Source: Gammaproteobacteria bacterium (GTDB lineage: Bacteria > Pseudomonadota > Gammaproteobacteria > Natronospirales > REEB76). Taken from it: DNA of 64,000 nucleotides. Shown here piece after piece: positions 10,324 through 26,145 of this stretch. The stretch spans positions 65 through 64,064 of the forward strand of contig DATBAJ010000071.1 of the NCBI GenBank assembly GCA_036271575.1, in the 5' to 3' direction. A program made the position numbers and the translations under genes. The notes beneath the pieces were generated by a model. That model had not been told where the DNA came from. It ran no database searches and worked only from the letters and a program-made list of their open reading frames with translations. Each line of letters begins with the position of its first letter. Positions within the stretch are counted from its first letter, which is position 1.

Positions 10324-10385
10324 GGTATGGCGATGCAGGATGCATCGCGAGGGCGAATCCGGGCATGCACCGGACTCGCCGAAAT

Positions 10386-10411
10386 CTGAAAATCCACGGA
10401 CGGATTTTCAG
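10386..10411. terminator. Perfect 10-bp stem / 6-nt loop hairpin between convergent genes
   Basis: CTGAAAATCC-acggac-GGATTTTCAG lies between the yaiI-like stop (10323) and the stop of the minus-strand gene (10418). A second 8-bp hairpin, GCGATGCA-gga-TGCATCGC, lies at 10330-10348. Confidence 0.5.
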
Positions 10412-10417
10412 TAGCAA

Positions 10418-10918: not shown

Positions 10919-11004
10919 CCCGGTTTCCCCCGGTTGGAGTGCGATGCGCAGATTGTCGCACGCTCACCGGACGGATTCATGACAATCACCCGATGGAGAT
11001 GCTC

Positions 11005-11529: not shown

Positions 11530-11561
11530 ACACGCCTTAGAGTCCCGCTAACACCGCATCG

Positions 11562-11600
11562 CCGCGGATGTCCAATCTTCGGACATCCGCGGTTTGCTTC
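11562..11600 (+). terminator. Rho-independent terminator after the DUF1993 gene
   Basis: Perfect 12-bp stem CCGCGGATGTCC-aatcttc-GGACATCCGCGG followed by TTTGCTTC. Confidence 0.6.
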
Positions 11601-11674
11601 TGTCTGTCCGTCGTCCAAGAATGTCTTCGTCCGCGTGGCGCGCCGCGGCCGAAATCAACGAATTCCAAACATCT

Positions 11675-12433
11675 ATGTCGCGCCGTGTAAACGAGACAGT
11701 GCAAGAGCAAGACGCCCGCTTCGCCTATTTCCTGGATGTGGACGGCACCTTGCTCCCGATCGCGGAGTCACCGGAAGTGGTGTCTCCGTCGGGGGCGGTG
11801 TGTTCCCTGCTCGCGCGCCTGGGCGCCGCGAACGAAGGCGCGCTAGCCTTGGTGAGCGGCCGTCCGCTGCATGAACTCGACGTTATGTTCGCTCCACACC
11901 GCTTCCCGGTCGCGGCCCAGCACGGCGCCGAGATACGCAATCCGGGCGGACGCGTGACATGGTGGGAAGGCCATCTGCCTGCCTTGCAGTCAGTGGGCGC
12001 GAAGATGCGTCGTCTCACCGACATGGACGGCCGGCTCCGTCTCGAAGACAAGGGTCTCGCCATCAGCCTCCATTACCGGCGCGCCCCGCAGCTGGGTGAC
12101 GGCCTCACAGCGACCATGCTCGAGATGCTGGCGCCGTACCGGATGCTCCGCCTGCAGCCGGGCAAGTGCGTGCTGGAGGTATGCGCCGCGGAACTCGGCA
12201 AAGGCCAGGCAGTGGAAGCTTTCATGCATCAGGCGCCGTTCGCGGGCCGGCGACCCATCTACATCGGCGACGATCTGACCGATGAGAGCGGTTTCGAAGC
12301 CGTGAACGCCATGGACGGCATCAGCATCAAGGTGGGACCGGAACCGAGCGTGGCGGGGGTACGCCTGCCCGATCCGGCTGCCGTGCTGCAGTGGCTGGCG
12401 GCCCGCTTACCGGAGGAATCCCGGGATGCGTGA
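11675..12433 (+). CDS. otsB: Trehalose-6-phosphate phosphatase
   Basis: HAD motifs FLDVDGTL (motif I) and IGDDLTDE (motif IV). It sits in an operon with GH15 and otsA. ATG 11675 puts motif I ~18 aa from the N-terminus, as in characterised OtsB. The track start TTG 11594 lies inside the upstream terminator hairpin. ATG 11621 remains possible. Confidence 0.75.
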   Translation: MSRRVNETVQEQDARFAYFLDVDGTLLPIAESPEVVSPSGAVCSLLARLGAANEGALALVSGRPLHELDVMFAPHRFPVAAQHGAEIRNPGGRVTWWEGHLPALQSVGAKMRRLTDMDGRLRLEDKGLAISLHYRRAPQLGDGLTATMLEMLAPYRMLRLQPGKCVLEVCAAELGKGQAVEAFMHQAPFAGRRPIYIGDDLTDESGFEAVNAMDGISIKVGPEPSVAGVRLPDPAAVLQWLAARLPEESRDA

Positions 12434-14203
12434 CCTGGAACTTGGCCTGATCGGCAACTGCTCGTTCGCCGCCCTGGTGGACAAACGCGCTGAGATGGTC
12501 TGGGCATGCCTGCCCCGCTTCGATGGTGATCCGGTGTTCTGCTCCTTGCTGGAACCCAAGGGCGACGGCCGCGGCAGCTTCCGCGTGGATCTGCAGGATC
12601 TGGCGGAGGCAGATCACCATTATGAGCGCAACACGGCAGTGCTGGTCACCACCCTGCGCGACAAGCATGGCGGTGTGGTGCAGGTCACCGACTTCGCGCC
12701 GCGCTTCAAGAACTATGGACGCATGTACCGCCCCGCCATGCTGGTGCGTTCCATCAAACCCTTGCACGGCCGGCCGCGCATCACCGTGCGCCTGCGGCCC
12801 AGCGGCGACTACGGCGCCATAGATGCCGGCATCGCCGGCGGCAGCAACCACGTGCGCTACCTGTTGCCGGACCAGGTGTTGCGGCTGACCACCAATGCAC
12901 CGGTGACGGCGATCCTGGACGAGACTTCGTTCCTGGTGGATCACGAGGTGGTGTTGCTGTTGGGTCCGGATGAGGTGGTGATGCGGCCGGTGGAGGAAGT
13001 GGCGCGCGAGTTCCACGCCGAGACCTCGGCCTATTGGCGCGATTGGGTGCGATACCTGGCCCTGCCGCTGGAGTGGCAGGATGCGGTGATCCGCGCCGCC
13101 ATCACCCTGAAGCTATGCACCTTCGAGGATACGGGTGCGGTGGTGGCGGCGGTCACCACCTCGATCCCCGAGAACGAAGGCTCGACGCGCAACTGGGATT
13201 ACCGGCATTGCTGGTTGCGCGACAGCTACTTCGTGGTGAACGCCCTCAATCGGCTCGGCGCCACCAAGACCATGGAAGACTACATCCGTTACGTGATCAA
13301 CATCGGTTCCGACACGGAACAGAGCCGCCTGAAGCCCGTCTACCGCATCAACGGCCGCGGCGATCTGGACGAGCGGGAGGTGCAGAGTCTCGCAGGCTAT
13401 CGCGGCATCGGGCCGGTGCGGGTGGGCAACGCCGCGCACACCCAGGAGCAGAACGACGTGTACGGCGCGGTGGTGTTGTCCGCCGCCCAGACCTTCTTCG
13501 ATGCGCGCCTGGATAGCCCGGGCGACGTGGCCTTGTTCCGGCAGCTCGAGGCCCTGGGGGAAGTGGCCCTGGACCTGCATGACAAGCCGGATGCGGGTCT
13601 ATGGGAGCTGCGTAACAGCAATCATATACACACCTTCTCCAGCGTCATGTGCTGGACCGCCTGCGACCGGCTGGCGCGCATCGCCTGGCACCTGGGTCTG
13701 GAAGGTCGCGCCGAGTATTGGGCGGCCGCAGCGCAGCGCATCCGTGAGACGATCCTATCCAGAGCCTGGAATACCGAGCGCGGCTGCTTCGTGGCGAGCT
13801 TCGGCGGCGACGGGCTGGACGCGAGCCTGCTGCTGATGGCCGAACTCGGCATCGTGTCGCCCAGTGATCCGCGCTTCGTGGCGACGGTGGATGCCATCGG
13901 CCGCGAACTCAAGCGCGGCGACTACGTGTTCCGTTACGTGGAAGCCGACGACTTCGGCACGCCGCATAATGCCTTCACCCTGTGCACCTTCTGGTACATC
14001 GATGCGCTCACCCAGATCGGCCGGCGTGCCGAGGCGCGCACCCTGTTCGAGCACATGCTGGCGCGCTGCACCACGCTCGGCCTCCTCTCGGAGCACCTGG
14101 ATCCGAAAGACGGCGAGTTGTGGGGCAATTTCCCCCAGACCTACAGCATGGTCGGCATCATCCACTCCGCCATGCGCCTCTCGGAACCCTGGGAGGTGGC
14201 GTT

Positions 14204-14207: not shown

Positions 14208-15633
<1,426 letters not shown>

Positions 15634-15637
<4 letters not shown>

Positions 15638-16707
15638 GCGGCATCACCGCCGATCTCTACTCCGCGATCCTGTTCGGGGCGATGCTGTGCGGCTCGCTGG
15701 TGGCCGCCTACGTGGTGCTATACCTGCTGCAGCATGTGATGCGCCGTTTTCAGACCGGCATCGCCCACGCGGTGCTGCGCCGCATCCGTGAGCCCATGTT
15801 GCTGCTGAGCCCGGTCTCGACAGTGCTGCTGGCCCTGCCGCTGGCGCGTTTCAGCGCCGCACCGGCGGCGTTCCTTTATCACGCGGCCCTGATCGTATTG
15901 ATCGCCACCCTGGGCTGGACCTGCATACGTCTCTTCGACGCGTGGCGTGACACCCTGGAGACACGGCACCGGCTCGACGTGGCGGACAACCTCACGGCGC
16001 GCCGCGTCCTCACCCAAGTCACCATCCTGCGCCGCATCGCCCTCGCATTGGTGCTGATCGGCACCGTCTCCGCCATGCTCATGACCTTCCCGGAGGTGCG
16101 GGCGGTGGGCGCCACGCTGTTCGCCTCCGCCGGCGTCGCGGGCCTGCTGTTGGGTCTGGCGGCCCGCCCGGTGTTCACCAACATACTGGCGGGGCTGCAG
16201 GTGGCGCTCACCGAGCCGATCCGCATCGACGACGTGGTGGTGGTGGAGGGTAACTGGGGCTGGATCGAGGAGATCGGCACCACCTACGTGGTGGTGCGGA
16301 TATGGGACCAGCGCCGGCTGATGCTGCCCTTGTCCTATTTCATCGAGAAACCGTTCGAGAACTGGACGCGCCGTACCGCCGACCTGCTGGCGACGGTCAC
16401 CTTGTACGCAGATTATGCCGCGCCGGTCCAGGAGCTGCGTGACTACTGTCACTCGATCCTGAGGGAGAGCCCGCTATGGGACGGCAAGACCTGGGCTTTC
16501 CAGGTCACGGACGCCACGCCGCAGACACTGCAGTTGCGCGCACTCATGAGCGTGGCCAACAGTAATGATGCCTGGGACCTGCGCTGCCTGGTGCGCGAAA
16601 AGCTGATCGAATTCCTGCGACGCCGCTATCCCGCCTGCCTGCCCCAGACCCGCGTGTCGTTGTTGCCCCAGGATGCCATCAGCCAAGGACAAGGAAGATC
16701 GTCATGA
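15634..16707 (+). CDS. Mechanosensitive ion channel family protein (MscS-like)
   Basis: 357 aa. N-terminal TM helices, then ..FTNILAGLQVALTEPIRIDDVVVVEGNWGWIEEIGTTYVVVRIWDQRRLMLPLSYF.. (MscS beta-domain). The ATGA start overlaps the otsA stop. Confidence 0.8.
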
Positions 16708-17516
16708 ACAAGTTTCTCTCCGCTTCGCTGCTGGCTGCATTGGCTGCGGCCTGCGCCACCTCGCCTACCGGGCGCAGACAACTCGACCTGGTCTCGGACC
16801 AGCAAGCCGCCCAGGCCGGTAACCAGCCTTTCCAGCAGATAAAGAAGCAGACGCCGGTGGACCAGAACCCGGCCGCCAACGCCTATGCGGGATGCATCGT
16901 GCATGGCTTGAGCGCGGCCACCGGTGCGCCGCGCGGCGGCGGCAATTGGGTGGTGACGGTGTTCAAGGACGATAAGACCGTGAACGCCTTCGCGCTGCCG
17001 GGCGGTCATGTCTCGGTGTACACCGGTATCTTCAAGGTGGCGAAGACGCCGGGTGAACTGGCGGCGGTGCTGGGCCACGAGATGGGCCACGTGCAGGCCG
17101 GGCATGGCGCGGAGCGCATCTCGGATCAGGAGGCGGCGTCGGTGGGCGTGGACTTGGCGGCGCTCCTCGCCGGTATCGATCAGAGTTCGTCCCAGGGGCA
17201 GGCCACGATGGCGGCATTGGGCGCCGGTGCCACGGTGGGCGTGTTGCTGCCCTACAGCCGCGCCCAGGAGAGCGAGGCCGACAAGCTCGGCACCCAGTAC
17301 ATGGCGGAGGCGGGTTGGAATCCTCACGAGGCACTGGAGCTATGGCGCAACATGATGAGCAGCAATCAGGGGGCGCCGCCGGCATTGCTGTCCGATCACC
17401 CGGCGGATGCTACGCGCTTGCAGGATCTGCAGGCGCAGTTGCCGGACGACATGCAGCGCTACCAGAAGGCGCAGCAGCAAGGCCACCATCCGGATTGCAC
17501 ACCACCGGGAGCCTGA
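16704..17516 (+). CDS. M48 family zinc metallopeptidase (lipoprotein)
   Basis: 270 aa. Lipoprotein-type signal MNKFLSASLLAALAAAC. HEMGH zinc motif plus a downstream ESEADKLG glutamate. ATGA overlap with the mscS-like gene. Confidence 0.8.
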   Translation: MNKFLSASLLAALAAACATSPTGRRQLDLVSDQQAAQAGNQPFQQIKKQTPVDQNPAANAYAGCIVHGLSAATGAPRGGGNWVVTVFKDDKTVNAFALPGGHVSVYTGIFKVAKTPGELAAVLGHEMGHVQAGHGAERISDQEAASVGVDLAALLAGIDQSSSQGQATMAALGAGATVGVLLPYSRAQESEADKLGTQYMAEAGWNPHEALELWRNMMSSNQGAPPALLSDHPADATRLQDLQAQLPDDMQRYQKAQQQGHHPDCTPPGA

Positions 17517-17523
17517 AGGGCGC

Positions 17524-20500
17524 CTAGGGCTTGGCGCAGTCTGCCGGTGCCACGCTGACCGGCAGCAGCTGCCCCGCATCCAGACGCCAGGGAGAGCGGC
17601 AGCGGATCAGCGCGGCGACGGCCTCGGGCGGCCGGTCTTCGGCATGCACGTCCAGCAAGCGTGTGCCCGCATAGTAGGCCTGGCTTGCGATCTGCCCAGC
17701 GCCGGGGGCGAACTCCATGTCTTCAGTGAGCGAGGAGTCACCGCTGATCTCCAGCAGCAATTGGCCTGAATCGGGGTCCCGGAGCTGTGCAACCCGGCTG
17801 CGCACCAGCAGGAATTGCCCATCCGGACTGTATTGGGCCCGGTCCAGGCTGAGGCGTTCGGCGTTGTACAGCCATGACAGGCTGCCGTCTCCCGCATCCC
17901 AGACCTTTAGGGTGCCGTTGCGATGGACCGTGACCAGGCGCCGGCCATCGGGATCGTAGCGGATGCTATCGACCTCGCCGCTGCCGCTGTCCCAACTGCG
18001 CAGCAGCTTGCTGTCGGCGATCTGCCACTCACGGATCACGCCGGCATTGTCTGCCGTGGTCACGATCTGTCCATCTGGACTCAGGGCCGCTCCGGCATTG
18101 TAGGAATACAGTATCTCCGGAGGAGCCAGGCTGCGGCGATGCATCTGGAGATCCCAGACCTCCGCGTAGTAACGGAACGGCTCTTTCGAGCGGTCCTCGC
18201 GGATGCCAAGGAAGTGGCTTCCGTCCGGCGTGAAGTGAGTGGCGTCGGCGCAACCCTCGGGCATGGCAAAACCGGCGAGTTGCCTGCCGTCATGCGCATC
18301 CCATATGTGGGCGGTCTTGTCATCACCGCAGCCGAAGACCCGCTTGCCGTCCGGAGTGAAGGCCGCCACGCTCATGGGGCGGCGCGACATGACCGACAAC
18401 ATCCGGCCATCCGCCGCATCCCACACACTCAGCGACGGATTCAAAGAGGCAGCTGCCAGGATTCGCGTCCCATCGGGGCTGAACACCGCGAAACTCGCGT
18501 AAGCCTTGTCCGGCTTGGATGGATCGCCTTGCGGCAAGGCCAAGTCGAAGAGACGCTTGCCATCGTGGGCCCGCCAGATCGTCACCCGTCCTTCGTCCGT
18601 GGTCGCCACGCGGGCCCCCATAGGGTCGTAGACCGGATGTGACCCGCTCACGTCGATGACCGCGCTGAGCACCGCCGCCATGTCCCACACTTGTGCCACA
18701 TTATCCTTGGTGACGGTCATCAGCCGGGTCGAGTCCCTGGTGAACAAGGCCACGCCGCCCGGCAACACGCCGCGCTGGGTATAGTCCTTACCGTCCCAGA
18801 TCCAGGTCACATCTTTGGCGGATGCGGCGATGAAGGCGCCGTCCTCGCTCATGATCAGGTTATCGATCTCGTCCGGCATCGCGGCGAAGCGCGCCAGGTT
18901 CTTGCCGGTGGCGGCATCCCAGACCCGCACGGTCTTGTCCTTGCTGCCGGTCAGCAGGCGTTTGCCGTCCGGCGAGAAGATCACGACCTTGACTGCATCG
19001 TCATGTCCACCTTCGTAGTCGTCGCGGTTCTTGGCGGCGATGGTATACAGCAGCCGGCCGTCGTGGGTATCCCAGACCCGTACGCTCTTGTCGTCGCTGG
19101 AACTGGCGAGCCGGCGGCTATCGGGGCTGAAAGCGAAATTTCCGACGTCGGCGCGATGACCGGTCAGTTGCGCCACCAGCCTGCCGTCACGGGAATCCCA
19201 CAGGGACAGGCTGTGGTCGGCATCGACGCCCACGATGCTGCGGCCATCAGGGCTGAAACCGGCGTGTTTGATGTGGCCGCCGCGCCCTTTCAGGGTCAGT
19301 TGCAATTTCCCGGAAGCAGGGTCCCATATCTGCACTTCACCCCCACGCTCGGACCGGGTGAGCAGGCGCTTGCTGTCCGCGTCGAACAGTGCGCCCACCA
19401 GGAAACTATCCTTGAAATTGAGACTCGTCACCGTGGCGCCTGTGTGGGCGTCCAAGACCCGTATCACGGTGTCCTGATCGAGGGTGTCCCGCTTGCTGCC
19501 CACCGCAACGTAGCGACCGTCGGGAGAGAAGCGCGACCACAGCTCCATGTGCCCGGGTTCGCCTATGGAGAGCAGATGACGGCCGCTGTCCACGTCCCAT
19601 ATATCGGCATCGCCAGCGCCGCCGGCTGCCGTCATGCGCTTGCCGTCCCGGGTCATGTCGGGATTGAACCACAGGCCGGCTTCGACGAAACGTCCGCGCA
19701 GGGAATCCACATACAACATACTGCGGGCCAGCAGCAGACGCAGGGCCGGCGTGCGGCCTCCTAAACGATAGGCCTCTCCCAGATAGGCTGCCGCCTGCAG
19801 CGGCTCCCCCTGCAGGTAAAGTTGGCGCCCTTGTTCCGTGTAGGCAGCTATCGCAGCTTGCTTCGCCTTGCGCTGCGCCTGCAGGTCCCAGGCGCCGGTC
19901 AACAACACCGCTGCGACCACCGCGGCCGCCGCCCACTGCAGCCGTCTCAGCAGGCGCCGGCGTTTCTCGCGCTGACGCAGTTCGTCGTAAGGCACCCCCA
20001 TGATCCCAGCGAGCAGCTTGAGACGGGCGCTCGCCTTGCCGTCCTGCTGCGGGCGGGCATCGGCCGCGATCGGTTCCACGCGCTCAGTCAGCAACCGACC
20101 CTCGCTGTCTACGCGGTGCCGCAAGGCCGGCGGGAAGCACTCCAACTCGCCGCTCTCAGGGCGGTCGCCGGCATTGGGTTCGCCGTCCACGATCAGCGCC
20201 AGGATGCGGTCGGCGCGTCCCTGGCGCTTGAAGGCGATGATCTCTTCGTTCACCCAGCGCGACACAGCCGCCCGCGGCGAGCAGACCACCACCAGGTAGC
20301 GGGAATGCTGCAGCGATTCGTTGATGTTGTCGGAGAGATCGGCGGAAGAGGGCAGCTCTTCGCGGTCGCGGAACACGGGGAACAGGCGTCGCGGCAGCGG
20401 CCCATCGCGTCCCTCCCGGCCCACCAGCCGGCGGGGGACGCGGTAGCTTTCCAAGGCCTTGTGCAGCCAGTCGGCCCAGGCCTTGTCGCGGTGGCTATAG

Positions 20501-20553
20501 GAGATGAAGGCCCAGTAGCGGCGGTGCTGTGGTTCCACCTGGGACACCCTCAT
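17524..20553 (-). CDS. TIR domain / single-TM / WD40-repeat protein
   Basis: 1009 aa. The N-terminus YWAFISYSHRDKAWADWLHKALE..FPVFRDREELP..YLVVVCSPRAAVSRWVNEEI is TIR_2-like, including the SxWxxxE(L/I) motif. A basic stretch RQREKRRRLLRRLQ precedes one hydrophobic helix, WAAAAVVAAVLLTGAW (about nt 19885-19944). About 14-15 WD-like repeats then follow, ending ..(I/V)W(D)xxxG with FSPDG(K/R) cores (about nt 17659-19668). Confidence 0.85.
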   Translation of the reverse strand: MRVSQVEPQHRRYWAFISYSHRDKAWADWLHKALESYRVPRRLVGREGRDGPLPRRLFPVFRDREELPSSADLSDNINESLQHSRYLVVVCSPRAAVSRWVNEEIIAFKRQGRADRILALIVDGEPNAGDRPESGELECFPPALRHRVDSEGRLLTERVEPIAADARPQQDGKASARLKLLAGIMGVPYDELRQREKRRRLLRRLQWAAAAVVAAVLLTGAWDLQAQRKAKQAAIAAYTEQGRQLYLQGEPLQAAAYLGEAYRLGGRTPALRLLLARSMLYVDSLRGRFVEAGLWFNPDMTRDGKRMTAAGGAGDADIWDVDSGRHLLSIGEPGHMELWSRFSPDGRYVAVGSKRDTLDQDTVIRVLDAHTGATVTSLNFKDSFLVGALFDADSKRLLTRSERGGEVQIWDPASGKLQLTLKGRGGHIKHAGFSPDGRSIVGVDADHSLSLWDSRDGRLVAQLTGHRADVGNFAFSPDSRRLASSSDDKSVRVWDTHDGRLLYTIAAKNRDDYEGGHDDAVKVVIFSPDGKRLLTGSKDKTVRVWDAATGKNLARFAAMPDEIDNLIMSEDGAFIAASAKDVTWIWDGKDYTQRGVLPGGVALFTRDSTRLMTVTKDNVAQVWDMAAVLSAVIDVSGSHPVYDPMGARVATTDEGRVTIWRAHDGKRLFDLALPQGDPSKPDKAYASFAVFSPDGTRILAAASLNPSLSVWDAADGRMLSVMSRRPMSVAAFTPDGKRVFGCGDDKTAHIWDAHDGRQLAGFAMPEGCADATHFTPDGSHFLGIREDRSKEPFRYYAEVWDLQMHRRSLAPPEILYSYNAGAALSPDGQIVTTADNAGVIREWQIADSKLLRSWDSGSGEVDSIRYDPDGRRLVTVHRNGTLKVWDAGDGSLSWLYNAERLSLDRAQYSPDGQFLLVRSRVAQLRDPDSGQLLLEISGDSSLTEDMEFAPGAGQIASQAYYAGTRLLDVHAEDRPPEAVAALIRCRSPWRLDAGQLLPVSVAPADCAKP

Positions 20554-22481
20554 TCTCCCTCGTGGGCGCGGCGCAGCCTATACAGTACGTTCTCGCCATA
20601 CTGTTTGGCGAGGGTCATGGACCCCAGATAGTCGCAGGCGAACTCGCGGGCGCCGGCTGCCGCCAGCAGGGCGGCCAGCTGCTCACTTATATATACGGCA
20701 CCCGCGGCCGTGACCGGCTCGATGCGCGCGGCGCGGTTCACGTGAGCGCCGAAGAAGTTGCGGCGGCCGATGATCGGGTCGACCGCCGGGAATACCGGGC
20801 CTGCGTGCATGCCGATGCGGATGCTGGTGTCCTCCGGCAAGCCGTGGCGGCGCCACTGGGTGGCGCGCACCGCATCACGCAGCCGCAGGCCGAAGTCCGC
20901 TGCCGGTGCCGGCTCATCGAACACCATGAACAGGCCGTCGCCCCAGGTGTTGAGGAAGGCGGGCATGGCGCCGCTGCCGGCGATGACCCGCGCGATCACT
21001 CCCAGGAAGTGCACCAGGAACGCCGGCGTGTCCGCCTCCTGCAGCCGGCTGAAACCCACCATGTCCGCGAACAGCATGGTCTTGATCTCGCGGTGTGCCG
21101 CCTCCGGCGAGGTGAGCGGCGCAGAGGCGCGGCGCGCGGGCGCTCCGGCGTCGCGTAGCGCGCGCAGGTCTATGTTGCGCGACGGCCGTCCAAGCTGTTC
21201 CCAGGCGTTGACCGCACTCTGCGTGCCTCCACGGCGCTCCGGGTCCAGCGGGTCCAGCACCGCGAGCTGCAGGACCCCGGTCTCGAGCTGTCCGGCGCGG
21301 AGCAAGGCCGCGCCCTGGGTGAGGGCGGCGGTGTATTCGAAGAGGATGTCATCGCCCAGGTACTGCTCCTGTACCGCGCGGCTGACGCTGGTGGCGTGGC
21401 GCAGGGCCGCGTGGAAACGCCGCGTCCATTGCGGACCGGCGAAGCCGACGCTGGTCTCCAGGAAGTCCTGTTGGGCGAACGGCAGGATCACGTGAACTTC
21501 CGCGCCGCGTTTCAGCATCTGCTCGATGAATATGATGTCGGCGCCGCAGGCGGCCGAGCAGTAGCCGAAGCCGGCGTCGCATTCCTCCAGTGCCGCAGCC
21601 ACCGCGCGCGTGACCTTGGGTTCGAGCGCCGCCGGGAATCGGGGTTCGGTCCGTTCGGGCCGATCCAGCATGTGGCCCGTGAATACCACCACCCGCGGCA
21701 GCGATACCAGCGCGTCGAGTCCGGACGGCACCGCGCTATCCAGCAGACGCAACTGCCTGCGCATGCTGGCGATGTCGCCGAAACGGCCTCGCATGGCACG
21801 CATGGCGCGCTGGTACCAGTGTTCCGCTTGCGGACCATCGCCCAGCAGCGCGCTGGCCTCACCCAGGGTGGCGTACATCCACGGATCGATCTTGCGGGTG
21901 TTGCGCAGTTTCTTCAGGCACAGCCGCCGGGTCTCTTCGGCCAGCGCGCGGCTTTCGACGGCGCGGCCGAGCAGCGAATACAGCGTCGCGGCATTGATGG
22001 CGGGGAAATATCCGCCGCTTGCGGCATAGGCCTCGGCGTAAGCGGCGGCGGCGCGCTCGCCGGCTTCGCTCCGCGCCGGTCCGGCGGGGAGACGGGCCCA
22101 CAGGTCCTTTGCGATGCGTCCTTCGAGGCTCTTGGCTTCTGCGTAGAGCGGGTCGGCGTGCCGGAGTCTGCCCGTGAGCGCCGCGAGCAGGCCCACGGCT
22201 TCGGTGTAGGAACCGCCGCGCGCCGCGGCCAGCGCCGCGAGATAACCGAGTTCGCGCTCGCGGGGGTGATGACTGATACCGTGGCGCAGGATCTCGTAGG
22301 CGAGGGTCGGATACCCATACTCCAGCGCGCGGCGGCCGGCATCGCAGAATGCGGCGGCATCCCAGTCCGCGCCGCCGGCGCGCTGTTCCCAGGCGGCGAT
22401 CAGGCCCCGCAGGTCCACCGGCGTTCGACGGCGCGGACGCGCCTGCTTCGCTGTGCGGCTGGCTTGGGTCTTGCGCGGCAT
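20550..22481 (-). CDS. Multidomain class III nucleotidyl cyclase (helical-repeat N-domain + Rossmann-like middle domain + cyclase)
   Basis: 643 aa. The C-terminal ~175 aa hold cyclase motifs: MLFADMVGFS (metal Asp), TWGDGLFMVF (metal Asp), IRIGMHAGPV and GAHVNRAARIE (Asn/Arg). The N-terminal ~230 aa are alpha-helical-repeat (..GGYFPAINAATLYSLLG..), TPR/DUF4071-like. The middle domain is ..VVVFTGHMLDRP..YCSAACGADIIFIEQMLKRGAEVHVILPF... The stop overlaps the TIR gene start (ATGA). Confidence 0.85.
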   Translation of the reverse strand: MPRKTQASRTAKQARPRRRTPVDLRGLIAAWEQRAGGADWDAAAFCDAGRRALEYGYPTLAYEILRHGISHHPRERELGYLAALAAARGGSYTEAVGLLAALTGRLRHADPLYAEAKSLEGRIAKDLWARLPAGPARSEAGERAAAAYAEAYAASGGYFPAINAATLYSLLGRAVESRALAEETRRLCLKKLRNTRKIDPWMYATLGEASALLGDGPQAEHWYQRAMRAMRGRFGDIASMRRQLRLLDSAVPSGLDALVSLPRVVVFTGHMLDRPERTEPRFPAALEPKVTRAVAAALEECDAGFGYCSAACGADIIFIEQMLKRGAEVHVILPFAQQDFLETSVGFAGPQWTRRFHAALRHATSVSRAVQEQYLGDDILFEYTAALTQGAALLRAGQLETGVLQLAVLDPLDPERRGGTQSAVNAWEQLGRPSRNIDLRALRDAGAPARRASAPLTSPEAAHREIKTMLFADMVGFSRLQEADTPAFLVHFLGVIARVIAGSGAMPAFLNTWGDGLFMVFDEPAPAADFGLRLRDAVRATQWRRHGLPEDTSIRIGMHAGPVFPAVDPIIGRRNFFGAHVNRAARIEPVTAAGAVYISEQLAALLAAAGAREFACDYLGSMTLAKQYGENVLYRLRRAHEGE

Positions 22482-22617
22482 GGATCGAGCATAGACGAAA
22501 AGACCCGCCGGCCATAGACCGCGGCGCTTGCAGTCCGGGCCCCGTCCAGCGAAGCTATGCCCGGCCCGCTAGGGACCCGCGGACCCGCATTACAACCATA
22601 AACGCGCGCAGCCAAGC

Positions 22618-25600
22618 ATGCTCCATCGCCGAATGCATCATCGGTCTCTGCGCCTGCGGGCCTTGGCGGTCGTCACCGGCTTGTGCCTGGCGTGCTGTGC
22701 GTCGTCGTCATCGGCGGCACCGGCGACTAGTCTGCCGCCGGGGTCGAGCCTGCGTTTCCGCCACATCCGCATCGAAGACGGCCTGGCCCAGAGTTCAGTG
22801 CAGGCCATCGTCCAGGACGCCCAGGGCTATCTGTGGTTCGGCACCCAGGACGGATTGCAGCGCTACGATGGCTACGGCTTCCTGACTTTCCGCCACGATC
22901 CCTCCGATCCCGGCTCTCTCTCGGACAACACGGTGAATGCCTTGGCCTTGGGGCAGGACGGCGCGCTCTGGGTCGGTACGTCGACGGGCGGCTTGGACAG
23001 GTTGGATACCAGCACCCGCCGTTTCAGCCATCTCGCCAATGATCCCAAGGACCCGGCCAGTCTCGCCAGCGACCAGGTGTCGGTGCTGTATGTGGATCGC
23101 CAGCAGCATCTGTGGATAGGTACCGGTGCCGGACTCGACCTGTACGATGGGCACGTCTTCCATCATTACCCTATCTCCGATTCCTCCGCCGGCCCGCGCA
23201 GCGTCAACAGCCTCCACGAGGATGCGAACGGGCGGCTTTGGGTGGGAAGCGGTCACGGCATCTTCTATATGGACGGCGATCATCTGGCGCCGTTCGTGGC
23301 CGGCGGCAGCATGACCTCCGATCAGCATGGCTTGTTCACGGAATCACCCATCCACGCCATCACCGGGGTAGGCGGCATGCTGTGGATCGCCAGCGGTAGA
23401 GGGATCGCGGCGGTGGATGCCCATGGAGAGCTGCAGCATTTCTATGCCCACTCCAAGGCGCCGGATTCCCTCGCCAACGATCATGCCCTGGCGCTGCTGC
23501 GGGACTCCTCCGGCGATGTCTGGGTCGGCACCTACGGCGGGGGAGTGAGCCGCTTCGACGATAGCGCCGCCGGGTTCTCATCCTACCGGCACGATGCGAC
23601 GGACCCCGGGAGCCTCGGCAGCGACCAGATCAACGTGCTCTATGAAGACCGTTCCGGCCTGATCTGGATCGGCACCGACGATGACGGCGTCGACATCTAC
23701 AATCCGCGCACCCGTGCTTTCGGCTACTACCGCCACAAGCAGGATGACGTGAACAGCCTGGCCAGTAACATGGTGTGGTCCATCTTCAAGGATCAGGCGG
23801 GCGATATCTGGGCCGGCACCGATCACGGGCTCACGCGCATGGATGCCGCCCGGCGCCACTACCGGCAGTACCACATGGGCGAGAGACCCGCCACGCGCGT
23901 GGACGACGATCAAGTCAACGTCGTCTACGGCGACCGGCAGGGTGGGCTGTGGACGGGGACTGACTACGGCATCTATAGATATGAGCCGGCGCGTGATGCA
24001 TTCCAGCGCTATGACCTGGTGCCGGGCCGCGATGACAGCAGCGGCAACGTGGTGAGTTCCCTCTATCAGGACAGCCACGGTCGCCTGTGGGCCGGCACCG
24101 GCGCGGGCCTGGTACAGGTGGACACGGAGAAACGCGGCGCGCGCCGCTTCCGCCATGACCCCAACCGCGCCGATAGCCTGCCGGCAGATGCCGTCATCGC
24201 CCTCTGCGAGACCACGGACGGCCGCCTGTGGGTGGGGACTTCCGGCGGGCTCGCCTCCTTCGACGGCACGGCCGACAGCTTCCAGGTGTTCCACAACGAT
24301 CCCAGGGATTCCACCAGTGTCAGCTACGACAACATCCAGTCCTGTCGCGCGGATGCCGAAGGCGGGCTTTGGGTCGGCACTGCCGACGGCTTGGATCACC
24401 TTGCGGCGGGACAGCGGTCGTTCAAGCGTTACTTCAGCCGCGACGGTCTTCCCAACGACACGATCTACTCGATCCTGGCGGAGCCGGCGGGCGCGATATG
24501 GATCAGCACCGACGACGGCCTGTCGCGTTTCGAGCCCGCGACCGGCGCGTTCCACAACTACCTGAAGAGCGACGGGCTGCAGAGCGACGAGTTCAACGGT
24601 GGCGCGGGTTTCGCCGCCCCGGACGGCGAACTGCTGTTCGGCGGCGTGGACGGACTGAACGCCTTCTATCCTTCCCACATCGCCCGCGATGCGTTGCCGC
24701 CGAAGGTCGCCGTCACCCGTTTCCTGCGTCAGAACTCGGAGGTGCCGCTGGCGACTACGGCCGGACAGACGGACGCAGTGCAAGTGCAATACCAGCAGAA
24801 CATGCTGAGCTTCGAGTTCACGGCCTTCGACTACGCGGAACCCGAGCTCAACCGTTTCAGCTACCGGCTGGACGGATTCGACGACGAGTGGCATGACTTG
24901 CGCGGACGGCACGCGGCGACCTATACCAACCTGGACCCGGGCAAGTACCTGTTGCGGGTGCGCGGCGCCAACAGCGACGGCGTGTGGAGCGCCGATGATG
25001 CGACCCTGGATATAGAAGTGCTGCCGCCGGCCTGGCGCAGCGGCTGGGCGTATCTGTTGTATGCCGCAGCCGGTTTCGTGACGCTGATGGTGGGGCTTGC
25101 TCTCTACAAGCGCATCATCCAGCGTGAGCAGCGTCTGGTGGAGGAACAGCAGCGCCGGCGTTGGGCGGAATCCTTGCACGACCTCATCCATCGCGTGACT
25201 GCCCAACGCGACGATCGCAGCATCGCCGAGCAGCTCATCGATGCGCTCACCAACTTCATCGACTACGAGCAGGCCTTGTTCTACGTGGAGCGGGAGGGCA
25301 GCATGACCTTGCTGGCTTCGCGCGGCATCGGTCCCACCGAACAGGCCTACCTGGAGCATTGGCCGCAGCAGCAACCGGGCATCGTGGCGCGACTCAAGCA
25401 GGCGCAGAAGACGCTGCTGCTCACGCCGGAGGATGCGGCGACCCTGGCGGGCGGCGCCAAACCGGGGCGGCACCATTACCTGGCGGTGCCGCTGCACTCC
25501 GGCAGCGGCGCGTTCCGGCTGCTGTTGGTGGGCCGGCCGAACCGGGTCCTCAAGGAGCAGCAGATGGCGGTGGCCACCGCCATGGCCAAGCAGGTGAACA

Positions 25601-26145
25601 TGGCGCTGGACAACATACAGTTGATCCAGGACTTGGAGGACCTCGCCACCACCGATGGACTGACCCGGCTCTATAACCGGCGTCATTTCATGGAGCGTGC
25701 CGAGAGCGAGTTCGAGCGCAGCCGCCGTTACCGGCGCGACTTGTCGGTGTTCCTCATCGATGCGGACCACTTCAAGCTCATCAACGACACCCATGGCCAC
25801 GAGGCGGGCGACCGGGCGCTGCGGCTTCTGGCCTCTGCCTGCCGCGAGGGCTTGCGCCAGCTGGACGTGATCGGCCGCTACGGAGGCGAGGAGCTGGTGG
25901 CGCTGCTGCCGGAAGCTTCCGCCGCAGTGGCCTACGAGACCGCCGAACGACTGCGGCAGAGCATCGAACGGATACAGATACCCTTGCCGCAGGGCGAAGC
26001 CCGGCTGACGGTGAGCATAGGCGTAGCCACCGCCGGGGCCGACACCGAGACCGTGGCGGCGCTCATCAACCAGGCGGACCGGGCCCTGTATGAGGCCAAG
26101 CGCAATGGCCGGAACCGGGTGGTGGCGGCCGGCGCTCCGAAATGA
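22618..26145 (+). CDS. Periplasmic two-component-regulator-propeller/Y_Y_Y sensor - TM - GAF - GGDEF diguanylate cyclase
   Basis: 1175 aa. Signal/lipoprotein-like N-terminus. Many ..LW(V/I)GT..GL..(Y/F).. propeller repeats, followed by a Y_Y_Y-like Ig segment (FSYRLDGFDDEWHD..). TM helix WAYLLYAAAGFVTLMVGLALY. GAF-like region. GGDEF domain with RYGGEEL active site and an RQLD (RxxD) I-site. Confidence 0.85.
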   Translation: MLHRRMHHRSLRLRALAVVTGLCLACCASSSSAAPATSLPPGSSLRFRHIRIEDGLAQSSVQAIVQDAQGYLWFGTQDGLQRYDGYGFLTFRHDPSDPGSLSDNTVNALALGQDGALWVGTSTGGLDRLDTSTRRFSHLANDPKDPASLASDQVSVLYVDRQQHLWIGTGAGLDLYDGHVFHHYPISDSSAGPRSVNSLHEDANGRLWVGSGHGIFYMDGDHLAPFVAGGSMTSDQHGLFTESPIHAITGVGGMLWIASGRGIAAVDAHGELQHFYAHSKAPDSLANDHALALLRDSSGDVWVGTYGGGVSRFDDSAAGFSSYRHDATDPGSLGSDQINVLYEDRSGLIWIGTDDDGVDIYNPRTRAFGYYRHKQDDVNSLASNMVWSIFKDQAGDIWAGTDHGLTRMDAARRHYRQYHMGERPATRVDDDQVNVVYGDRQGGLWTGTDYGIYRYEPARDAFQRYDLVPGRDDSSGNVVSSLYQDSHGRLWAGTGAGLVQVDTEKRGARRFRHDPNRADSLPADAVIALCETTDGRLWVGTSGGLASFDGTADSFQVFHNDPRDSTSVSYDNIQSCRADAEGGLWVGTADGLDHLAAGQRSFKRYFSRDGLPNDTIYSILAEPAGAIWISTDDGLSRFEPATGAFHNYLKSDGLQSDEFNGGAGFAAPDGELLFGGVDGLNAFYPSHIARDALPPKVAVTRFLRQNSEVPLATTAGQTDAVQVQYQQNMLSFEFTAFDYAEPELNRFSYRLDGFDDEWHDLRGRHAATYTNLDPGKYLLRVRGANSDGVWSADDATLDIEVLPPAWRSGWAYLLYAAAGFVTLMVGLALYKRIIQREQRLVEEQQRRRWAESLHDLIHRVTAQRDDRSIAEQLIDALTNFIDYEQALFYVEREGSMTLLASRGIGPTEQAYLEHWPQQQPGIVARLKQAQKTLLLTPEDAATLAGGAKPGRHHYLAVPLHSGSGAFRLLLVGRPNRVLKEQQMAVATAMAKQVNMALDNIQLIQDLEDLATTDGLTRLYNRRHFMERAESEFERSRRYRRDLSVFLIDADHFKLINDTHGHEAGDRALRLLASACREGLRQLDVIGRYGGEELVALLPEASAAVAYETAERLRQSIERIQIPLPQGEARLTVSIGVATAGADTETVAALINQADRALYEAKRNGRNRVVAAGAPK

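What the first reader, a model, noticed from the sequence alone, without database searches (positions are those of the whole stretch)
17524..22481. Translationally coupled non-canonical nucleotide cyclase + TIR/TM/WD40 gene pair: candidate uncharacterised nucleotide-signalling or defence-like module
Two minus-strand genes overlap by 4 nt (ATGA at 20550-20553), so they are very likely co-transcribed and translationally coupled.

Gene 1 (643 aa) has three parts. The N-terminal domain is helical-repeat (..GGYFPAINAATLYSLLG.., TPR/DUF4071-like). The central domain is Rossmann-like. The C-terminal domain is a class III nucleotidyl cyclase with intact metal and transition-state residues.

Gene 2 (1009 aa) has an N-terminal TIR domain (FISYSHRD.., ..SRWVNEEI..) that retains the Glu aligned with the catalytic Glu of NAD-cleaving TIRs. 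One hydrophobic helix and ~14-15 WD40-like repeats follow.

Pairing of a cyclase with a TIR effector is established for Pycsar (PycC + cNMP-binding TIR). TIR NADases also act in Thoeris and some CBASS operons. Here the TIR protein has no cNMP-binding, SAVED, SLOG or STING receiver, and the accessory domains sit on the cyclase instead. I cannot match the pair to any named system.

Composition looks native and no integrase or transposase flanks the pair. It could therefore be a chromosomal signalling pathway rather than a mobile defence island.
Basis: partly seen in the sequence, partly recalled or inferred. Interest (0 to 1): 0.85.

Follow-up and report, generated by a model that had tools for sequence, protein, structure and literature searches.

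The report
TIR receptor paired with signal-sensing cyclase
Two overlapping genes encode a membrane-anchored TIR enzyme with a large propeller-shaped sensor and a nucleotide cyclase that carries two domains known or predicted to read TIR-made signals, so the pair looks like an untested, Thoeris-like immune or stress relay in which one small-molecule signal triggers production of a second.

Summary
Two minus-strand ORFs (643 aa and 1009 aa) overlap by ATGA and have the stated domains and residues (D473, D515, N582, R586; TIR E104).

The interpretation needs revision. Gene 1's N-terminal repeats are Pfam TPR-S, the scaffold predicted to sense TIR-made NAD+-derived signals and present in the cADPR-activated type VIII Thoeris effector. 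Its "Rossmann-like" centre is a SLOG-superfamily fold. So the receiver domains sit on the cyclase protein.

Gene 2 has a ThsB-type TIR, one TM helix and about 16 propeller blades predicted to face the periplasm.

- Among 80 genomes with gene-1 homologues, 34-53 have a TIR gene within 6 kb.
- Partner architectures vary (TIR-TM-WD40/TPR, SIR2-TIR with nSTAND1, TIR-DUF4062, kinase-TIR) and track the cyclase phylogeny.
- Three close relatives keep the pair in the same chromosomal context.

Most likely signal flow: TIR makes an ADPR-type messenger, TPR-S/SLOG binds it, the cyclase is activated, and a cNMP is produced.

No PADLOC or NCBIfam system matches. I found no experimental work on this architecture. 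I rate it a new variant of a known kind (Thoeris-like TIR signalling). Whether it serves defence or physiology is unresolved.

The parts
20550..22481 (-). Gene 1, 643 aa: TPR-S, then a SLOG-like domain, then a class III nucleotidyl cyclase. Predicted receiver and output protein.
   Evidence: ORF. Pfam. AlphaFold2 model with pLDDT 86.9 and pTM 0.85. Family of at least 394 close homologues. 547 confirmed loci among 599 candidate stretches in the species-genome collection.
21732..22409 (-). TPR-S (TPR-Sensor) helical-repeat domain, about residues 25-250.
   Evidence: PF20308 E=8.7e-12 and a weak PF13281 match. Profile match to the ASK1/MAP3K5 central regulatory region 5ulm, E=7.9e-5. R122, K125, N163, W201 and E208 are near-invariant in 198 homologues. 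The same GR..KD.W and PGINA.T motifs occur in a canonical DUF4071/TPR-S protein in L081.
21147..21719 (-). SLOG-superfamily Rossmannoid domain, about residues 255-445, with GHMxD and CGAD...E motifs.
   Evidence: No Pfam or PDB sequence match. Domain model pLDDT 90.1. The best-scoring Foldseek matches are members of what I know as the SLOG superfamily (grouping from memory of Burroughs et al. 2015): DprA 5mll 1.2e-5, ShosA 8zva 1.9e-5, LOG 5its/5zbl, MoCo-carrier 2iz7, TM1055 1rcu, TRPM2 8src; weaker unrelated folds also appear lower in the list. G269, H270, D273, C312, G313, D315 and E320 are near-invariant. 4343 clusters at 50% identity carry the domain, 1021 of them at E<=1e-30.
20553..21098 (-). 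Class III nucleotidyl cyclase catalytic domain, about residues 462-643.
   Evidence: PF00211 E=2.9e-12. Foldseek matches to guanylyl and adenylyl cyclases at about 2e-8, TM(target) 0.77. D473 and D515 conserved in 197/198; R555, H559 and R586 in 198/198. Base-specifying positions are N511 (182/198) and N575 (147/198), not Lys/Asp or Glu/Cys.
17524..20553 (-). Gene 2, 1009 aa: N-terminal TIR module, one TM helix, about 16 WD40/PD40-like blades. Predicted sensor and signal generator.
   Evidence: ORF. Pfam. Orthologues of 1010-1016 aa lie immediately downstream of gene-1 orthologues in three relatives.
19954..20553 (-). TIR module, residues 1-200: TIR core plus a conserved extension of about 75 aa. 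Candidate catalytic residue E104.
   Evidence: TIR_2 3.3e-17 and ThsB_TIR 1.7e-10, with no CAP12-PCTIR_TIR hit. E104 is invariant in 22 homologues and aligns with the Glu of the flax L6 TIR 'SKWCLME' motif. That this Glu is catalytic is from my knowledge of plant TIRs. At least 1505 homologues at 50-70% identity.
19885..19938 (-). Predicted single TM helix (QWAAAAVVAAVLLTGAW), preceded by an Arg-rich stretch (RQREKRRRLLRRLQ).
   Evidence: 18 of 18 related TIR partners have exactly one TM helix at this position, with 5-8 K/R upstream and 1-5 downstream. In this window the segment scores below the 19-residue threshold, so the call rests on homology.
17569..19668 (-). About 16 WD40/PD40-like beta-propeller blades. 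This is the fastest-evolving part and the predicted extracytoplasmic sensor.
   Evidence: WD40 and propeller Pfam hits. Repeat spacing of 36-51 aa. 49-54% identity to orthologues, against 78-81% for the TIR.
20550..20561 (-). Gene junction: ATGA stop/start overlap plus a GAGGGAGA Shine-Dalgarno-like sequence.
   Evidence: Read directly from the sequence.
22482..22617 (.). 136-bp intergenic region shared with the divergent Reg_prop/Y_Y_Y-(weak GAF)-GGDEF gene. Probable promoter region of the pair.
   Evidence: ORF coordinates. No consensus sigma-70 site was found. The divergent arrangement is conserved in relatives.

Best explanation
The pair is a Thoeris-like TIR signalling module wired as a relay.

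Proposed steps:
1. Gene 2 is a single-pass membrane receptor. Its roughly 16-blade beta-propeller region faces the periplasm and detects a cue of unknown nature. [Topology and cue are inferred.]
2. Detection brings the cytoplasmic ThsB-type TIR domains together. Using the conserved Glu104, they convert NAD+ into an ADP-ribose-derived messenger. Canonical cADPR is the precedent for TPR-S effectors. [Inferred.]
3. The messenger binds the TPR-S/SLOG tandem of gene 1. [Inferred.]
4. Binding allows the C-terminal class III cyclase domains to form the active head-to-tail dimer and make a cyclic nucleotide. The substrate is uncertain because the base-specifying pair is Asn/Asn. [Inferred.]
5. The cNMP is read by proteins encoded elsewhere, or NTP consumption is itself the output. 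GAF-domain proteins are candidate readers: a GAF-like GGDEF neighbour here, and GAF or GAF-SpoIIE genes in other lineages. [Inferred.]

Shown here:
- The domain identities.
- The conserved catalytic and ligand-site residues.
- The operon structure.
- The recurrent genomic linkage between this cyclase family and TIR proteins, which tracks phylogeny.
For: 1. TPR-S is present above the Pfam cut-off. The Thoeris preprint reports that a TPR domain, the one Aravind and colleagues predicted to act in TIR signalling, sits in ThsI of type VIII Thoeris. That system uses canonical cADPR, and exogenous cADPR activates the effector.
2. The central domain is a SLOG-superfamily fold. The SLOG of ThsA binds the TIR product in type I Thoeris (preprint introduction). 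TRPM2, which is among the fold matches, was solved with ADP-ribose.
3. TPR-S and the SLOG-like domain form a fixed tandem, always found together. They occur with the cyclase, with added kinase or RyR domains, and as adjacent separate genes on a Rhizobium plasmid next to a TIR, a SLATT protein and patatin.
4. Linkage to TIR genes:
   - 53 of 80 genome loci have a TIR-profile hit within 6 kb (34 at E<=1e-10).
   - 25 of these are immediate neighbours, in varied order and orientation.
   - Pfam confirms TIR in every sampled partner type.
   - Partner type tracks the cyclase-protein tree.
5. TIR partners carry sensor-type modules and no cNMP-binding domain: WD40, TPR, nSTAND1 NTPase, Ser/Thr kinase, CHAT-FGS. 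The TIR matches ThsB_TIR, not the Pycsar/CBASS effector TIR model. E104 is invariant.
6. A Caballeronia plasmid has a TPR-S-cyclase homologue close to a TIR gene and a DUF4231/SLATT gene, the type VII Thoeris effector class. This parallels the reported co-occurrence of ThsH and ThsI, which read the same signal.
7. Cyclase metal and phosphate residues are essentially invariant, so the domain is under selection as an enzyme.
8. The pair is conserved in three relatives. The propeller region diverges fastest (49-54% identity, against 78-83% for TIR and cyclase), as expected for the ligand-facing part.
Against: - No biochemical data exist for any member. Direction of signalling rests on domain logic only.
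- I could not read Burroughs & Aravind 2020, the source of the TPR-S prediction. It is known to me only through the Pfam name, the citing preprint and memory.
- The closest fold matches of the central domain are DprA, ShosA and LOG, not the SLOG of ThsA. TM-scores are only 0.38-0.51. The near-invariant His/Asp/Cys/Asp/Glu set could mark an enzyme or a nucleic-acid binder rather than a sensor.
- 27 of 80 loci have no TIR within reach. About half of these have truncated flanks, but some whole clades lack one (cyanobacterial, planctomycete, verrucomicrobial).
- A cyclase is an unusual terminal effector, and no cNMP receiver is encoded in the operon.
- The canonical transition-state Asn is not conserved in the family.
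- The TM helix in this protein is marginal. A periplasmic location for classical WD40 repeats is unusual.
Confidence: 0.6

Rival explanations
1. Gene 1 senses the trigger through its TPR/SLOG region and makes a cNMP. The cNMP activates the gene-2 TIR as an NAD+-depleting effector.
For: - Cyclase plus TIR pairs with this logic exist: Pycsar, and Pucsar with cGMP activating a CNBD-TIR.
- Gene 1 comes first in the operon.
- There is a weak partial PADLOC PycC hit, E=0.0016.
- TPR arrays can act as sensors in other defence proteins (my general knowledge).
Against: - Gene 2 and its relatives have no cNMP-binding, SAVED, STING or other nucleotide-receiver domain. In Pycsar and Pucsar the TIR effector is defined by a CNBD fusion.
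- The TIR matches ThsB_TIR, not CAP12-PCTIR_TIR.
- TIR partners carry large sensor modules, including STAND NTPases. That is atypical for a downstream effector.
- Gene 1 carries two domains tied to reading TIR products.
Confidence: 0.12
2. A protein-scaffold model with no diffusible NAD+-derived messenger. TPR-S acts as a protein-protein platform, as in the ASK1 signalosome. It binds the TIR module or another partner directly. The TIR serves as an adaptor, or locally consumes NAD+.
For: - The TPR-S region matches the ASK1 central regulatory region, known as a protein-binding scaffold (my knowledge).
- The gene-2 TIR module has an unusually conserved extension of about 75 aa (57-66% identity across 22 homologues; up to 70% to the nearest homologues). 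This could be a docking surface.
- Tight operon coupling is typical of complexes.
Against: - The candidate catalytic Glu of the TIR is invariant.
- The TPR-S pocket residues are invariant polar or charged residues (R122, K125, N163, E208), which suits a small ligand.
- The only TPR-S-type effector tested responds to added cADPR.
- Partner TIR proteins are architecturally very diverse. That argues against one fixed protein interface.
Confidence: 0.1
3. The biological role is not anti-phage defence. Same wiring, but in this lineage the pair is a housekeeping envelope or environment sensing pathway. A periplasmic cue leads to a TIR signal, then a cNMP, then regulation, for example through GAF-GGDEF and c-di-GMP or through sigma factors.
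For: - The chromosomal context is stable in four genomes, with no mobile-element genes.
- TIR, SLOG-like and cyclase domains evolve as slowly as the housekeeping neighbours.
- The output is a signalling enzyme, not an obvious toxin.
- The predicted sensor faces outward.
- A divergent neighbour has a GAF-like domain fused to GGDEF.
- GAF, GAF-SpoIIE, sigma-70-like and S8 peptidase genes lie near homologues in 8 loci.
Against: - In other genomes the partners are hallmark conflict modules: nSTAND1-TPR, SIR2-TIR, CHAT-FGS, SLATT, patatin, and a TIR-rich island with a primase.
- The characterised TPR-S system is anti-phage.
- The GAF links come from few lineages and may be plain vertical synteny.
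Confidence: 0.35

Closest known systems
Type VIII Thoeris (TIR ThsB plus ThsI: CMP-hydrolase domain plus the 'Aravind' TPR). This is the experimentally tested member of the TIR plus TPR-S class predicted by Burroughs & Aravind, J Bacteriol 2020.
   Same: - A two-gene module: a TIR protein with the catalytic Glu, and a partner carrying a TPR-S-type domain.
- The TIR is ThsB-like.
- Predicted logic: the TIR makes an ADPR-derived messenger and the TPR-bearing partner reads it.
   Different: - The output here is a SLOG-like domain plus a class III cyclase, not a CMP hydrolase/DRHyd domain.
- Domain order is TPR-S first.
- The TIR is fused to a TM helix and a large propeller array rather than being a small soluble ThsB.
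- No Thoeris model in PADLOC or NCBIfam matches.
- Neither the signal nor phage defence has been tested.
Type I Thoeris (ThsB TIR plus ThsA SIR2-SLOG)
   Same: A TIR generator paired with an effector that contains a SLOG-superfamily domain. The TIR matches PF08937 ThsB_TIR.
   Different: - The effector enzyme is a cyclase, not SIR2.
- The SLOG-like domain is closest in fold to DprA, ShosA and LOG rather than to ThsA, and has no sequence match.
- An additional TPR-S domain is present.
Pycsar / Pucsar (PycC or PucC cyclase plus a CNBD-TIR or TM effector)
   Same: A class III-type cyclase gene adjacent to a TIR gene, with cyclic mononucleotide chemistry.
   Different: - There is no cNMP-binding domain on the TIR protein.
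- The cyclase is not a minimal PycC; the only hit is partial, E=0.0016.
- The cyclase carries TIR-signal receiver domains.
- The inferred direction of signalling is reversed.
Animal Toll-like receptors, and bacterial PknB-type receptor kinases (an analogy of topology only)
   Same: Predicted layout: an extracytoplasmic repeat sensor, a single TM helix and a cytoplasmic signalling domain, which is a TIR as in TLRs.
   Different: - The TIR is N-terminal and predicted to be enzymatic, not an adaptor.
- The repeats are beta-propellers, not LRRs.
- The topology is untested.
- No homology is implied beyond the TIR fold.
ASK1/MAP3K5 N-terminal regulatory region (Pfam MAP3K_TRAF_bd / DUF4071)
   Same: The TPR-S helical scaffold is detectably homologous (5ulm at E=7.9e-5).
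   Different: It is a eukaryotic kinase. It has a different flanking Rossmann-like domain and no cyclase. No TIR-product ligand is known for it.

Membership tests
TIR plus TPR-S signalling systems (type VIII Thoeris-like) | A TIR-domain protein that retains the catalytic glutamate | tested here: met
   TIR_2 63.6 bits and ThsB_TIR 41.6 bits. E104 is invariant in 22 homologues and aligns with the L6 TIR 'SKWCLME' Glu.
TIR plus TPR-S signalling systems (type VIII Thoeris-like) | A partner protein that contains the TPR-S domain | tested here: met
   PF20308 at 46 bits against a cut-off of 27.6. Hallmark motifs are shared with a canonical DUF4071/TPR-S protein.
TIR plus TPR-S signalling systems (type VIII Thoeris-like) | The two genes are adjacent and the association recurs across genomes | tested here: met
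   4-nt overlap. 34-53 of 80 loci have a TIR within 6 kb, and 20-25 of those are immediate neighbours. The pair is kept in 3 relatives. Partner type tracks phylogeny.
TIR plus TPR-S signalling systems (type VIII Thoeris-like) | The effector domain is a CMP-hydrolase / nucleoside deoxyribosyltransferase-like domain (ThsI) | tested here: not met
   There is no such Pfam hit. The region is instead a SLOG-like fold followed by a class III cyclase.
TIR plus TPR-S signalling systems (type VIII Thoeris-like) | The TIR makes cADPR on stimulation and the effector is activated by it; the system protects from phage | not testable with these tools
   Needs LC-MS, ligand binding and plaque assays.
Named defence systems in PADLOC-DB v2 / NCBIfam | A significant match of either protein to a system model | tested here: not met
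   Only weak partial hits were found. PADLOC: PycC 0.0016, SAVED_TIR 1.6e-5 and ThsB1 0.036. NCBIfam: Thoeris III ThcB4 at 16.8 bits against a cut-off of 220.
Pycsar / Pucsar | The effector carries a cyclic-nucleotide-binding domain fused to a TIR or to TM helices | tested here: not met
   No CNBD in gene 2 or in sampled partner proteins. CNBD-TIR is the defining effector.
Pycsar / Pucsar | The cyclase belongs to the PycC/PucC clade | tested here: inconclusive
   The PADLOC PycC hit covers only 73 of 374 model positions at E=0.0016. No phylogeny against reference cyclases could be made.
Type I Thoeris | A ThsA-type effector (SIR2 plus SLOG) | tested here: not met
   No SIR2 domain in gene 1. 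The SLOG-superfamily fold is present, but its nearest matches are DprA, ShosA and LOG.
Class III nucleotidyl cyclases | The cyclase-homology fold with two metal-binding Asp residues | tested here: met
   PF00211. Foldseek about 2e-8, TM(target) 0.77. D473 and D515 are conserved in 197/198.
Class III nucleotidyl cyclases | The transition-state Asn/Arg pair | tested here: met
   N582 and R586 are present in this protein. R586 is conserved in 198/198, but the Asn position is Asn in only 57/198 (T 62, S 29, V 25, I 22).
Class III nucleotidyl cyclases | A canonical base-specifying pair (Lys/Asp for ATP, Glu/Cys for GTP) | tested here: not met
   N511 aligns with the Glu of the GC motif 'ETIGD', and N575 aligns with the Cys of 'FCLFG'. 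N511 is found in 182/198 and N575 in 147/198.
Class III nucleotidyl cyclases | Cyclase activity and product identity | not testable with these tools
   Needs an enzyme assay with all four NTPs.
SLOG superfamily | A Rossmannoid fold whose best structural matches are SLOG members, with a Gly-rich ligand loop | tested here: met
   The best-scoring matches are DprA, ShosA, LOG, MoCo-carrier, TM1055 and TRPM2, all SLOG members by my memory of Burroughs et al. 2015. TM-scores are moderate (0.38-0.51) and weaker unrelated folds appear lower in the list. The GHMxD and CGAD motifs are conserved. There is no sequence-level match.

The most novel reading that the evidence does not exclude
A bacterial Toll-like-receptor analogue drives a two-tier second-messenger cascade.
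1. Periplasmic beta-propellers detect an envelope or extracellular cue, such as phage adsorption or penetration, competitor attack, or a cell-wall fragment.
2. The cytoplasmic TIR converts the cue into a cADPR-type signal.
3. The TPR-S/SLOG cyclase translates that signal into a cNMP.
4. GAF-type regulators read the cNMP, for example the neighbouring GAF-like GGDEF enzyme or GAF-SpoIIE/sigma modules elsewhere.

The outcome would be a graded regulatory response (c-di-GMP, transcription) rather than abortive infection. This would be the first link between TIR/NAD+ signalling and classical cNMP signalling in bacteria.
Probability: 0.2. Interest if true: 0.85.

Novelty: new variant of a known kind. 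Interest (0 to 1): 0.62.

Why it matters
- TIR-made ADPR-type messengers and cyclic mononucleotides are treated as separate branches of bacterial immune signalling. A protein that reads the first and writes the second would join them, adding an amplification or relay step.
- The family is large. At least 1021 clusters at 50% identity carry the SLOG-like domain at E<=1e-30. The genome scan confirmed 547 encoding loci among its first 599 candidates, and the 80 loci examined span many phyla. I found no experimental work on this architecture in the literature I could search.
- The membrane-anchored TIR, with a predicted outward-facing sensor, would be a receptor layout reminiscent of Toll-like receptors. 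It would extend where bacterial TIR systems can look for danger.
- The family offers a defined test of what TPR-S and this SLOG-like domain bind.
- It may also show what an Asn/Asn class III cyclase makes.

Tried and rejected
- **PADLOC and NCBIfam scans** of both proteins gave no system-level match.
- **Pfam and PDB sequence searches of the central domain** found nothing. Only structure prediction plus Foldseek identified it.
- **The full-length Foldseek search** was dominated by the cyclase domain and said nothing about the rest.
- **Literature**:
  - Burroughs & Aravind 2020 and Burroughs et al. 2015 are not held.
  - A search for 'TPR-S' as a word found only unrelated papers.
  - The Thoeris preprint supplements list no cyclase-type effector. 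Their 'cyclase' hits are CBASS entries.
  - The Pucsar preprint mentions TPR and TIR only in a figure legend.
- **Promoter and terminator scan**: nothing above chance.
- **Paralogues**: no second copy of either gene elsewhere in the window.
- **Reverse look-ups from gene-2 TIR homologues** were mixed. One lies 7 kb from a DUF4071/TPR-S gene in a TIR-rich island. One has no TPR-S gene within 8 kb.
- **CBASS** was considered and rejected: no CD-NTase or SAVED domain.
- **A mobile defence island in this genome** was rejected: native GC content, housekeeping flanks, and conserved context in relatives.
- **A degenerate cyclase** was rejected: metal and phosphate residues are invariant.
- **My first simple tblastn synteny test** under-counted TIR partners. 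An iterated TIR profile was needed.

Full report
**1. Observation**

Gene 1 is 20550-22481(-), 643 aa. Gene 2 is 17524-20553(-), 1009 aa. The coding strand reads ...GAG GGA GAA TGA with the gene-2 ATG overlapping the stop (ATGA). A GAGGGAGA Shine-Dalgarno-like stretch lies directly upstream of that ATG.

GC content of the pair (0.64-0.69) resembles the rest of the window. The flanking genes are otsB, a GH15 enzyme, otsA, an MscS channel and an M48 peptidase on one side. On the other side are a Reg_prop/Y_Y_Y-GGDEF protein, an SSF transporter and a PAS-GGDEF-EAL protein. There is no integrase or transposase. No internal promoter or terminator signal exceeds chance.

**2. Gene 1 anatomy**

Pfam gives TPR-S (PF20308, residues 73-167, 46 bits, cut-off 27.6), a weak MAP3K_TRAF_bd/DUF4071 match, and Guanylate_cyc (residues 468-625). 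Residues 255-445 have no Pfam or PDB sequence match, even at E=10.

An AlphaFold2 model built from a 34-sequence alignment is confident (pLDDT 86.9, pTM 0.85).
- The cyclase part matches class III guanylyl and adenylyl cyclases (E about 2e-8, TM(target) about 0.77).
- The TPR part matches the ASK1/MAP3K5 central regulatory region by profile (5ulm, E=7.9e-5).
- The central domain was modelled alone (pLDDT 90.1). Its best-scoring Foldseek matches are DprA (1.2e-5), ShosA (1.9e-5), LOG enzymes, MoCo-carrier protein, TM1055 and the ADP-ribose-bound TRPM2 N-terminal domain. These are members of what I know as the SLOG superfamily (grouping from memory of Burroughs et al. 2015). TM-scores are moderate, 0.38-0.51, and weaker unrelated folds appear lower in the list.

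So gene 1 is TPR-S, then a SLOG-like domain, then a class III cyclase.

A census of 198 homologues shows:

| Domain | Residue(s) | Conservation |
|---|---|---|
| Cyclase, metal-binding | D473, D515 | 197/198 |
| Cyclase | R555, H559, R586 | 198/198 |
| Cyclase, base-specifying | N511 | Asn 182/198 |
| Cyclase, base-specifying | N575 | Asn 147/198 |
| Cyclase, transition-state Asn | N582 | Asn only 57/198 (T 62, S 29, V 25, I 22) |
| SLOG-like motifs | G269, H270, D273, C312, G313, D315, E320 | near-invariant |
| TPR-S | R122, K125, N163, W201, E208 | near-invariant |

The base-specifying positions are aligned to the Glu and Cys of guanylyl cyclases. All three domains therefore look functional. 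The cyclase is non-canonical in base selection.

**3. Gene 2 anatomy**

The first 200 residues match TIR_2 (3.3e-17) and ThsB_TIR (1.7e-10, above cut-off). They do not match the CAP12/Pycsar effector TIR model. E104 is invariant among 22 homologues. It aligns with the Glu of the 'SKWCLME' motif of flax L6 TIR. That this Glu is the catalytic residue is from my knowledge of plant TIR enzymology.

The TIR core is followed by a conserved extension of about 75 aa, then an Arg-rich stretch and a hydrophobic helix.
- In this protein the helix is marginal on a 19-residue hydrophobicity scan.
- 18 of 18 related partners have exactly one clear TM helix at this position.
- Those helices have 5-8 Lys/Arg before them and 1-5 after.
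- By the positive-inside rule the TIR is cytoplasmic and the C-terminal repeats are outside. This is inferred.

About 16 WD40/PD40-like blades follow. No cNMP-binding, SAVED, STING or SLOG domain is present.

**4. Comparative genomics**

Gene-1 homologues are abundant. There are 394 close hits. The 80 loci fetched come from Pseudomonadota, Acidobacteriota, Planctomycetota, Cyanobacteriota, Verrucomicrobiota, Armatimonadota and others. The SLOG-like domain alone finds 4343 clusters at 50% identity, 1021 of them at E<=1e-30.

In the 80 fetched loci, the dominant conserved neighbour is a TIR protein.

| TIR-profile threshold | Loci with a hit within 6 kb | Immediate neighbours (<500 nt) |
|---|---|---|
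| E<=1e-3 | 53 of 80 | 25 |
| E<=1e-10 | 34 of 80 | 20 |

Order and orientation vary. About half of the 27 negative loci have truncated flanks.

Pfam confirmed the TIR in each sampled partner type:
- TIR-TM-TPR or TIR-TM-WD40, like gene 2;
- SIR2_2-TIR together with an nSTAND1-TPR NTPase;
- TIR-DUF4062 together with nSTAND1-TPR;
- Ser/Thr kinase-TM-Sel1-TIR;
- a 1672-aa TIR-CHAT-cyclase-FHA-FGS-LysM protein.

Partner type tracks the gene-1 tree. This indicates inheritance as systems.

Three close relatives (69-71% identity) keep gene 1 followed by a 1010-1016-aa TIR-WD40 gene in the same chromosomal context. Identity to those orthologues is as follows.

| Region | Identity |
|---|---|
| Cyclase | 79-83% |
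| TIR module | 78-81% |
| SLOG-like domain | 74-75% |
| TPR-S | 66-68% |
| Propeller region | 49-54% |
| Neighbouring housekeeping genes | 60-81% |

The sensor-like propeller is the fast-evolving part.

**5. Links to the TIR-signalling network**

- In L081, a gene-2-type TIR-TM protein is split from its WD40 protein. It lies 7 kb from a canonical DUF4071/TPR-S protein, in an island with other TIR genes.
- On a Rhizobium plasmid, a stand-alone SLOG-like protein (41% identical to the gene-1 centre) is immediately followed by a TPR-S protein. These sit beside a TIR, a SLATT_1/DUF4231 protein, patatin and another TPR-S protein.
- On a Caballeronia plasmid, a distant TPR-S-cyclase homologue lies near a TIR gene and a DUF4231 gene.
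- Variant architectures keep TPR-S next to the SLOG-like domain while adding a kinase or a RyR domain.

TPR-S plus SLOG-like is thus a fixed tandem that lives in TIR neighbourhoods.

**6. What is known**

The preprint 10.64898/2025.12.03.692087 defines type VIII Thoeris as a TIR plus ThsI, a CMP hydrolase with a TPR domain.
- It shows that the TIR makes canonical cADPR on infection and that added cADPR is toxic to cells carrying the system.
- That prediction is Burroughs & Aravind 2020, which I could not read. My recollection is that its abstract describes a TPR scaffold predicted to recognise NAD+-derived signals and incorporated into the ASK signalosome.
- Type I Thoeris reads its TIR product with a SLOG domain.

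Pycsar and Pucsar work in the opposite direction. There the cyclase makes a cNMP that activates a CNBD-TIR effector.

**7. Mechanism**

The best-supported reading is a relay. Gene 2 is the sensor and signal generator. Gene 1 is the receiver and output.
- *Shown:* the domain identities, the conserved catalytic and ligand-site residues, the operon, and the recurrent linkage to TIR proteins that tracks phylogeny.
- *Inferred:* the direction of signalling, the identity of the messenger, activation of the cyclase by ligand-induced dimerisation, the outward-facing sensor, and what reads the cNMP.

Weak leads exist for a reader.
- The divergently transcribed neighbour (22618-26145) has a full-length but sub-threshold GAF match between its TM region and its GGDEF domain.
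- Eight distant loci have GAF or GAF-SpoIIE genes, sometimes with an S8 peptidase and a sigma-70-like gene.

**8. Rivals**

1. It is disfavoured because the TIR proteins lack any nucleotide-receiver domain, because they carry sensor modules, and because the receiver domains sit on the cyclase.
2. A pure protein-scaffold role for TPR-S. It is disfavoured by the invariant TIR Glu and by the cADPR response of ThsI.
3. A physiological role rather than an immune one. This remains open. In this lineage the context is native and stable and the catalytic domains evolve slowly. In other genomes the partners are hallmark conflict modules.

**9. Novelty and verdict**

The pair belongs to a known kind: TIR-based NAD+-derived messenger systems, Thoeris-like. 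It does not meet the definition of any named type. It has no CMP hydrolase, no SIR2 and no CNBD, and no PADLOC or NCBIfam system match.

The cyclase output and the membrane-receptor TIR make it a new variant. The architecture may already be listed in comparative-genomic surveys that I could not read. I found no experimental work on it.

Interest is moderate to high (0.62). The family is large and untested and would connect two messenger chemistries. The central claim, the direction of signalling and the ligand, still rests on inference.

Noticed in passing
window 22618-26145 (+): The divergently transcribed neighbour is a 1175-aa protein: Reg_prop/Y_Y_Y periplasmic propeller, TM, GGDEF. It has a full-length but sub-threshold GAF match (GAF_2 E=2.9e-4) between the TM region and the GGDEF domain. 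Its adjacency to gene 1 is conserved in three relatives. It could read a cNMP made by gene 1, but the synteny may simply be vertical inheritance.
   Followed up: partly
L059:4204-5484; L077:4628-6507; L039, L053, L064 and L066 at about 9000-12700; L023 and L025 at about 14700-15880: GAF-only or GAF-SpoIIE (PP2C) genes lie near gene-1 homologues in 8 Acidobacteriota and Abditibacteriaceae loci. They often come with an S8 peptidase, a sigma-70-like gene and a small unknown gene. They are candidate downstream readers of the cyclase product.
   Followed up: partly
L012:9071-14089: A 1672-aa protein lies immediately downstream of a gene-1 homologue. It combines TIR, CHAT, a second class III cyclase, FHA, FGE-sulfatase and LysM domains. 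This is a striking all-in-one conflict-type architecture.
   Followed up: no
L086 (Rhizobium leguminosarum plasmid CP050566.1, 32153-40319): An island with a CAP12-type TIR, a stand-alone SLOG-like protein (175 aa, 41% identical to the gene-1 centre), an adjacent TPR-S protein, SLATT_1/DUF4231, DUF3380, patatin and a second TPR-S protein. An IS4 transposase lies nearby.
   Followed up: partly
gene 1 residue 582 (window about 20736-20738), family-wide: The canonical transition-state Asn of class III cyclases is Asn in only 57 of 198 homologues (Thr 62, Ser 29, Val 25, Ile 22). The metal Asp residues and Arg586 are invariant. This suggests altered ribose positioning or altered chemistry in this cyclase clade.
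   Followed up: partly
P0333, P0297, P0341 (RyR-TPR-S-SLOG with or without cyclase); P0257 (kinase-TPR-S-SLOG-cyclase); L081:13692-14237: Some family members carry an N-terminal RyR domain or a Ser/Thr kinase. A stand-alone RyR-domain gene also sits in the TIR-rich island L081. The role of bacterial RyR domains here is unknown.
   Followed up: no
L081 (ERZ25039537 contig_39381): A split version of gene 2 (a 314-aa TIR-TM protein followed by an 894-aa protein with 14 WD40 repeats). It lies in an island with TIR-nSTAND1-FGS, a double-TIR protein, a Toprim/AAA_25 primase-like gene and a DUF4071/TPR-S gene.
   Followed up: partly
window 16704-17516 (+) compared with L088 and L091: The M48 peptidase gene lies just beyond the 3' end of gene 2 in the window. 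In two relatives it lies between the GGDEF gene and gene 1, and in the third it is absent from the fetched locus. This is a local rearrangement around an otherwise conserved pair.
   Followed up: no
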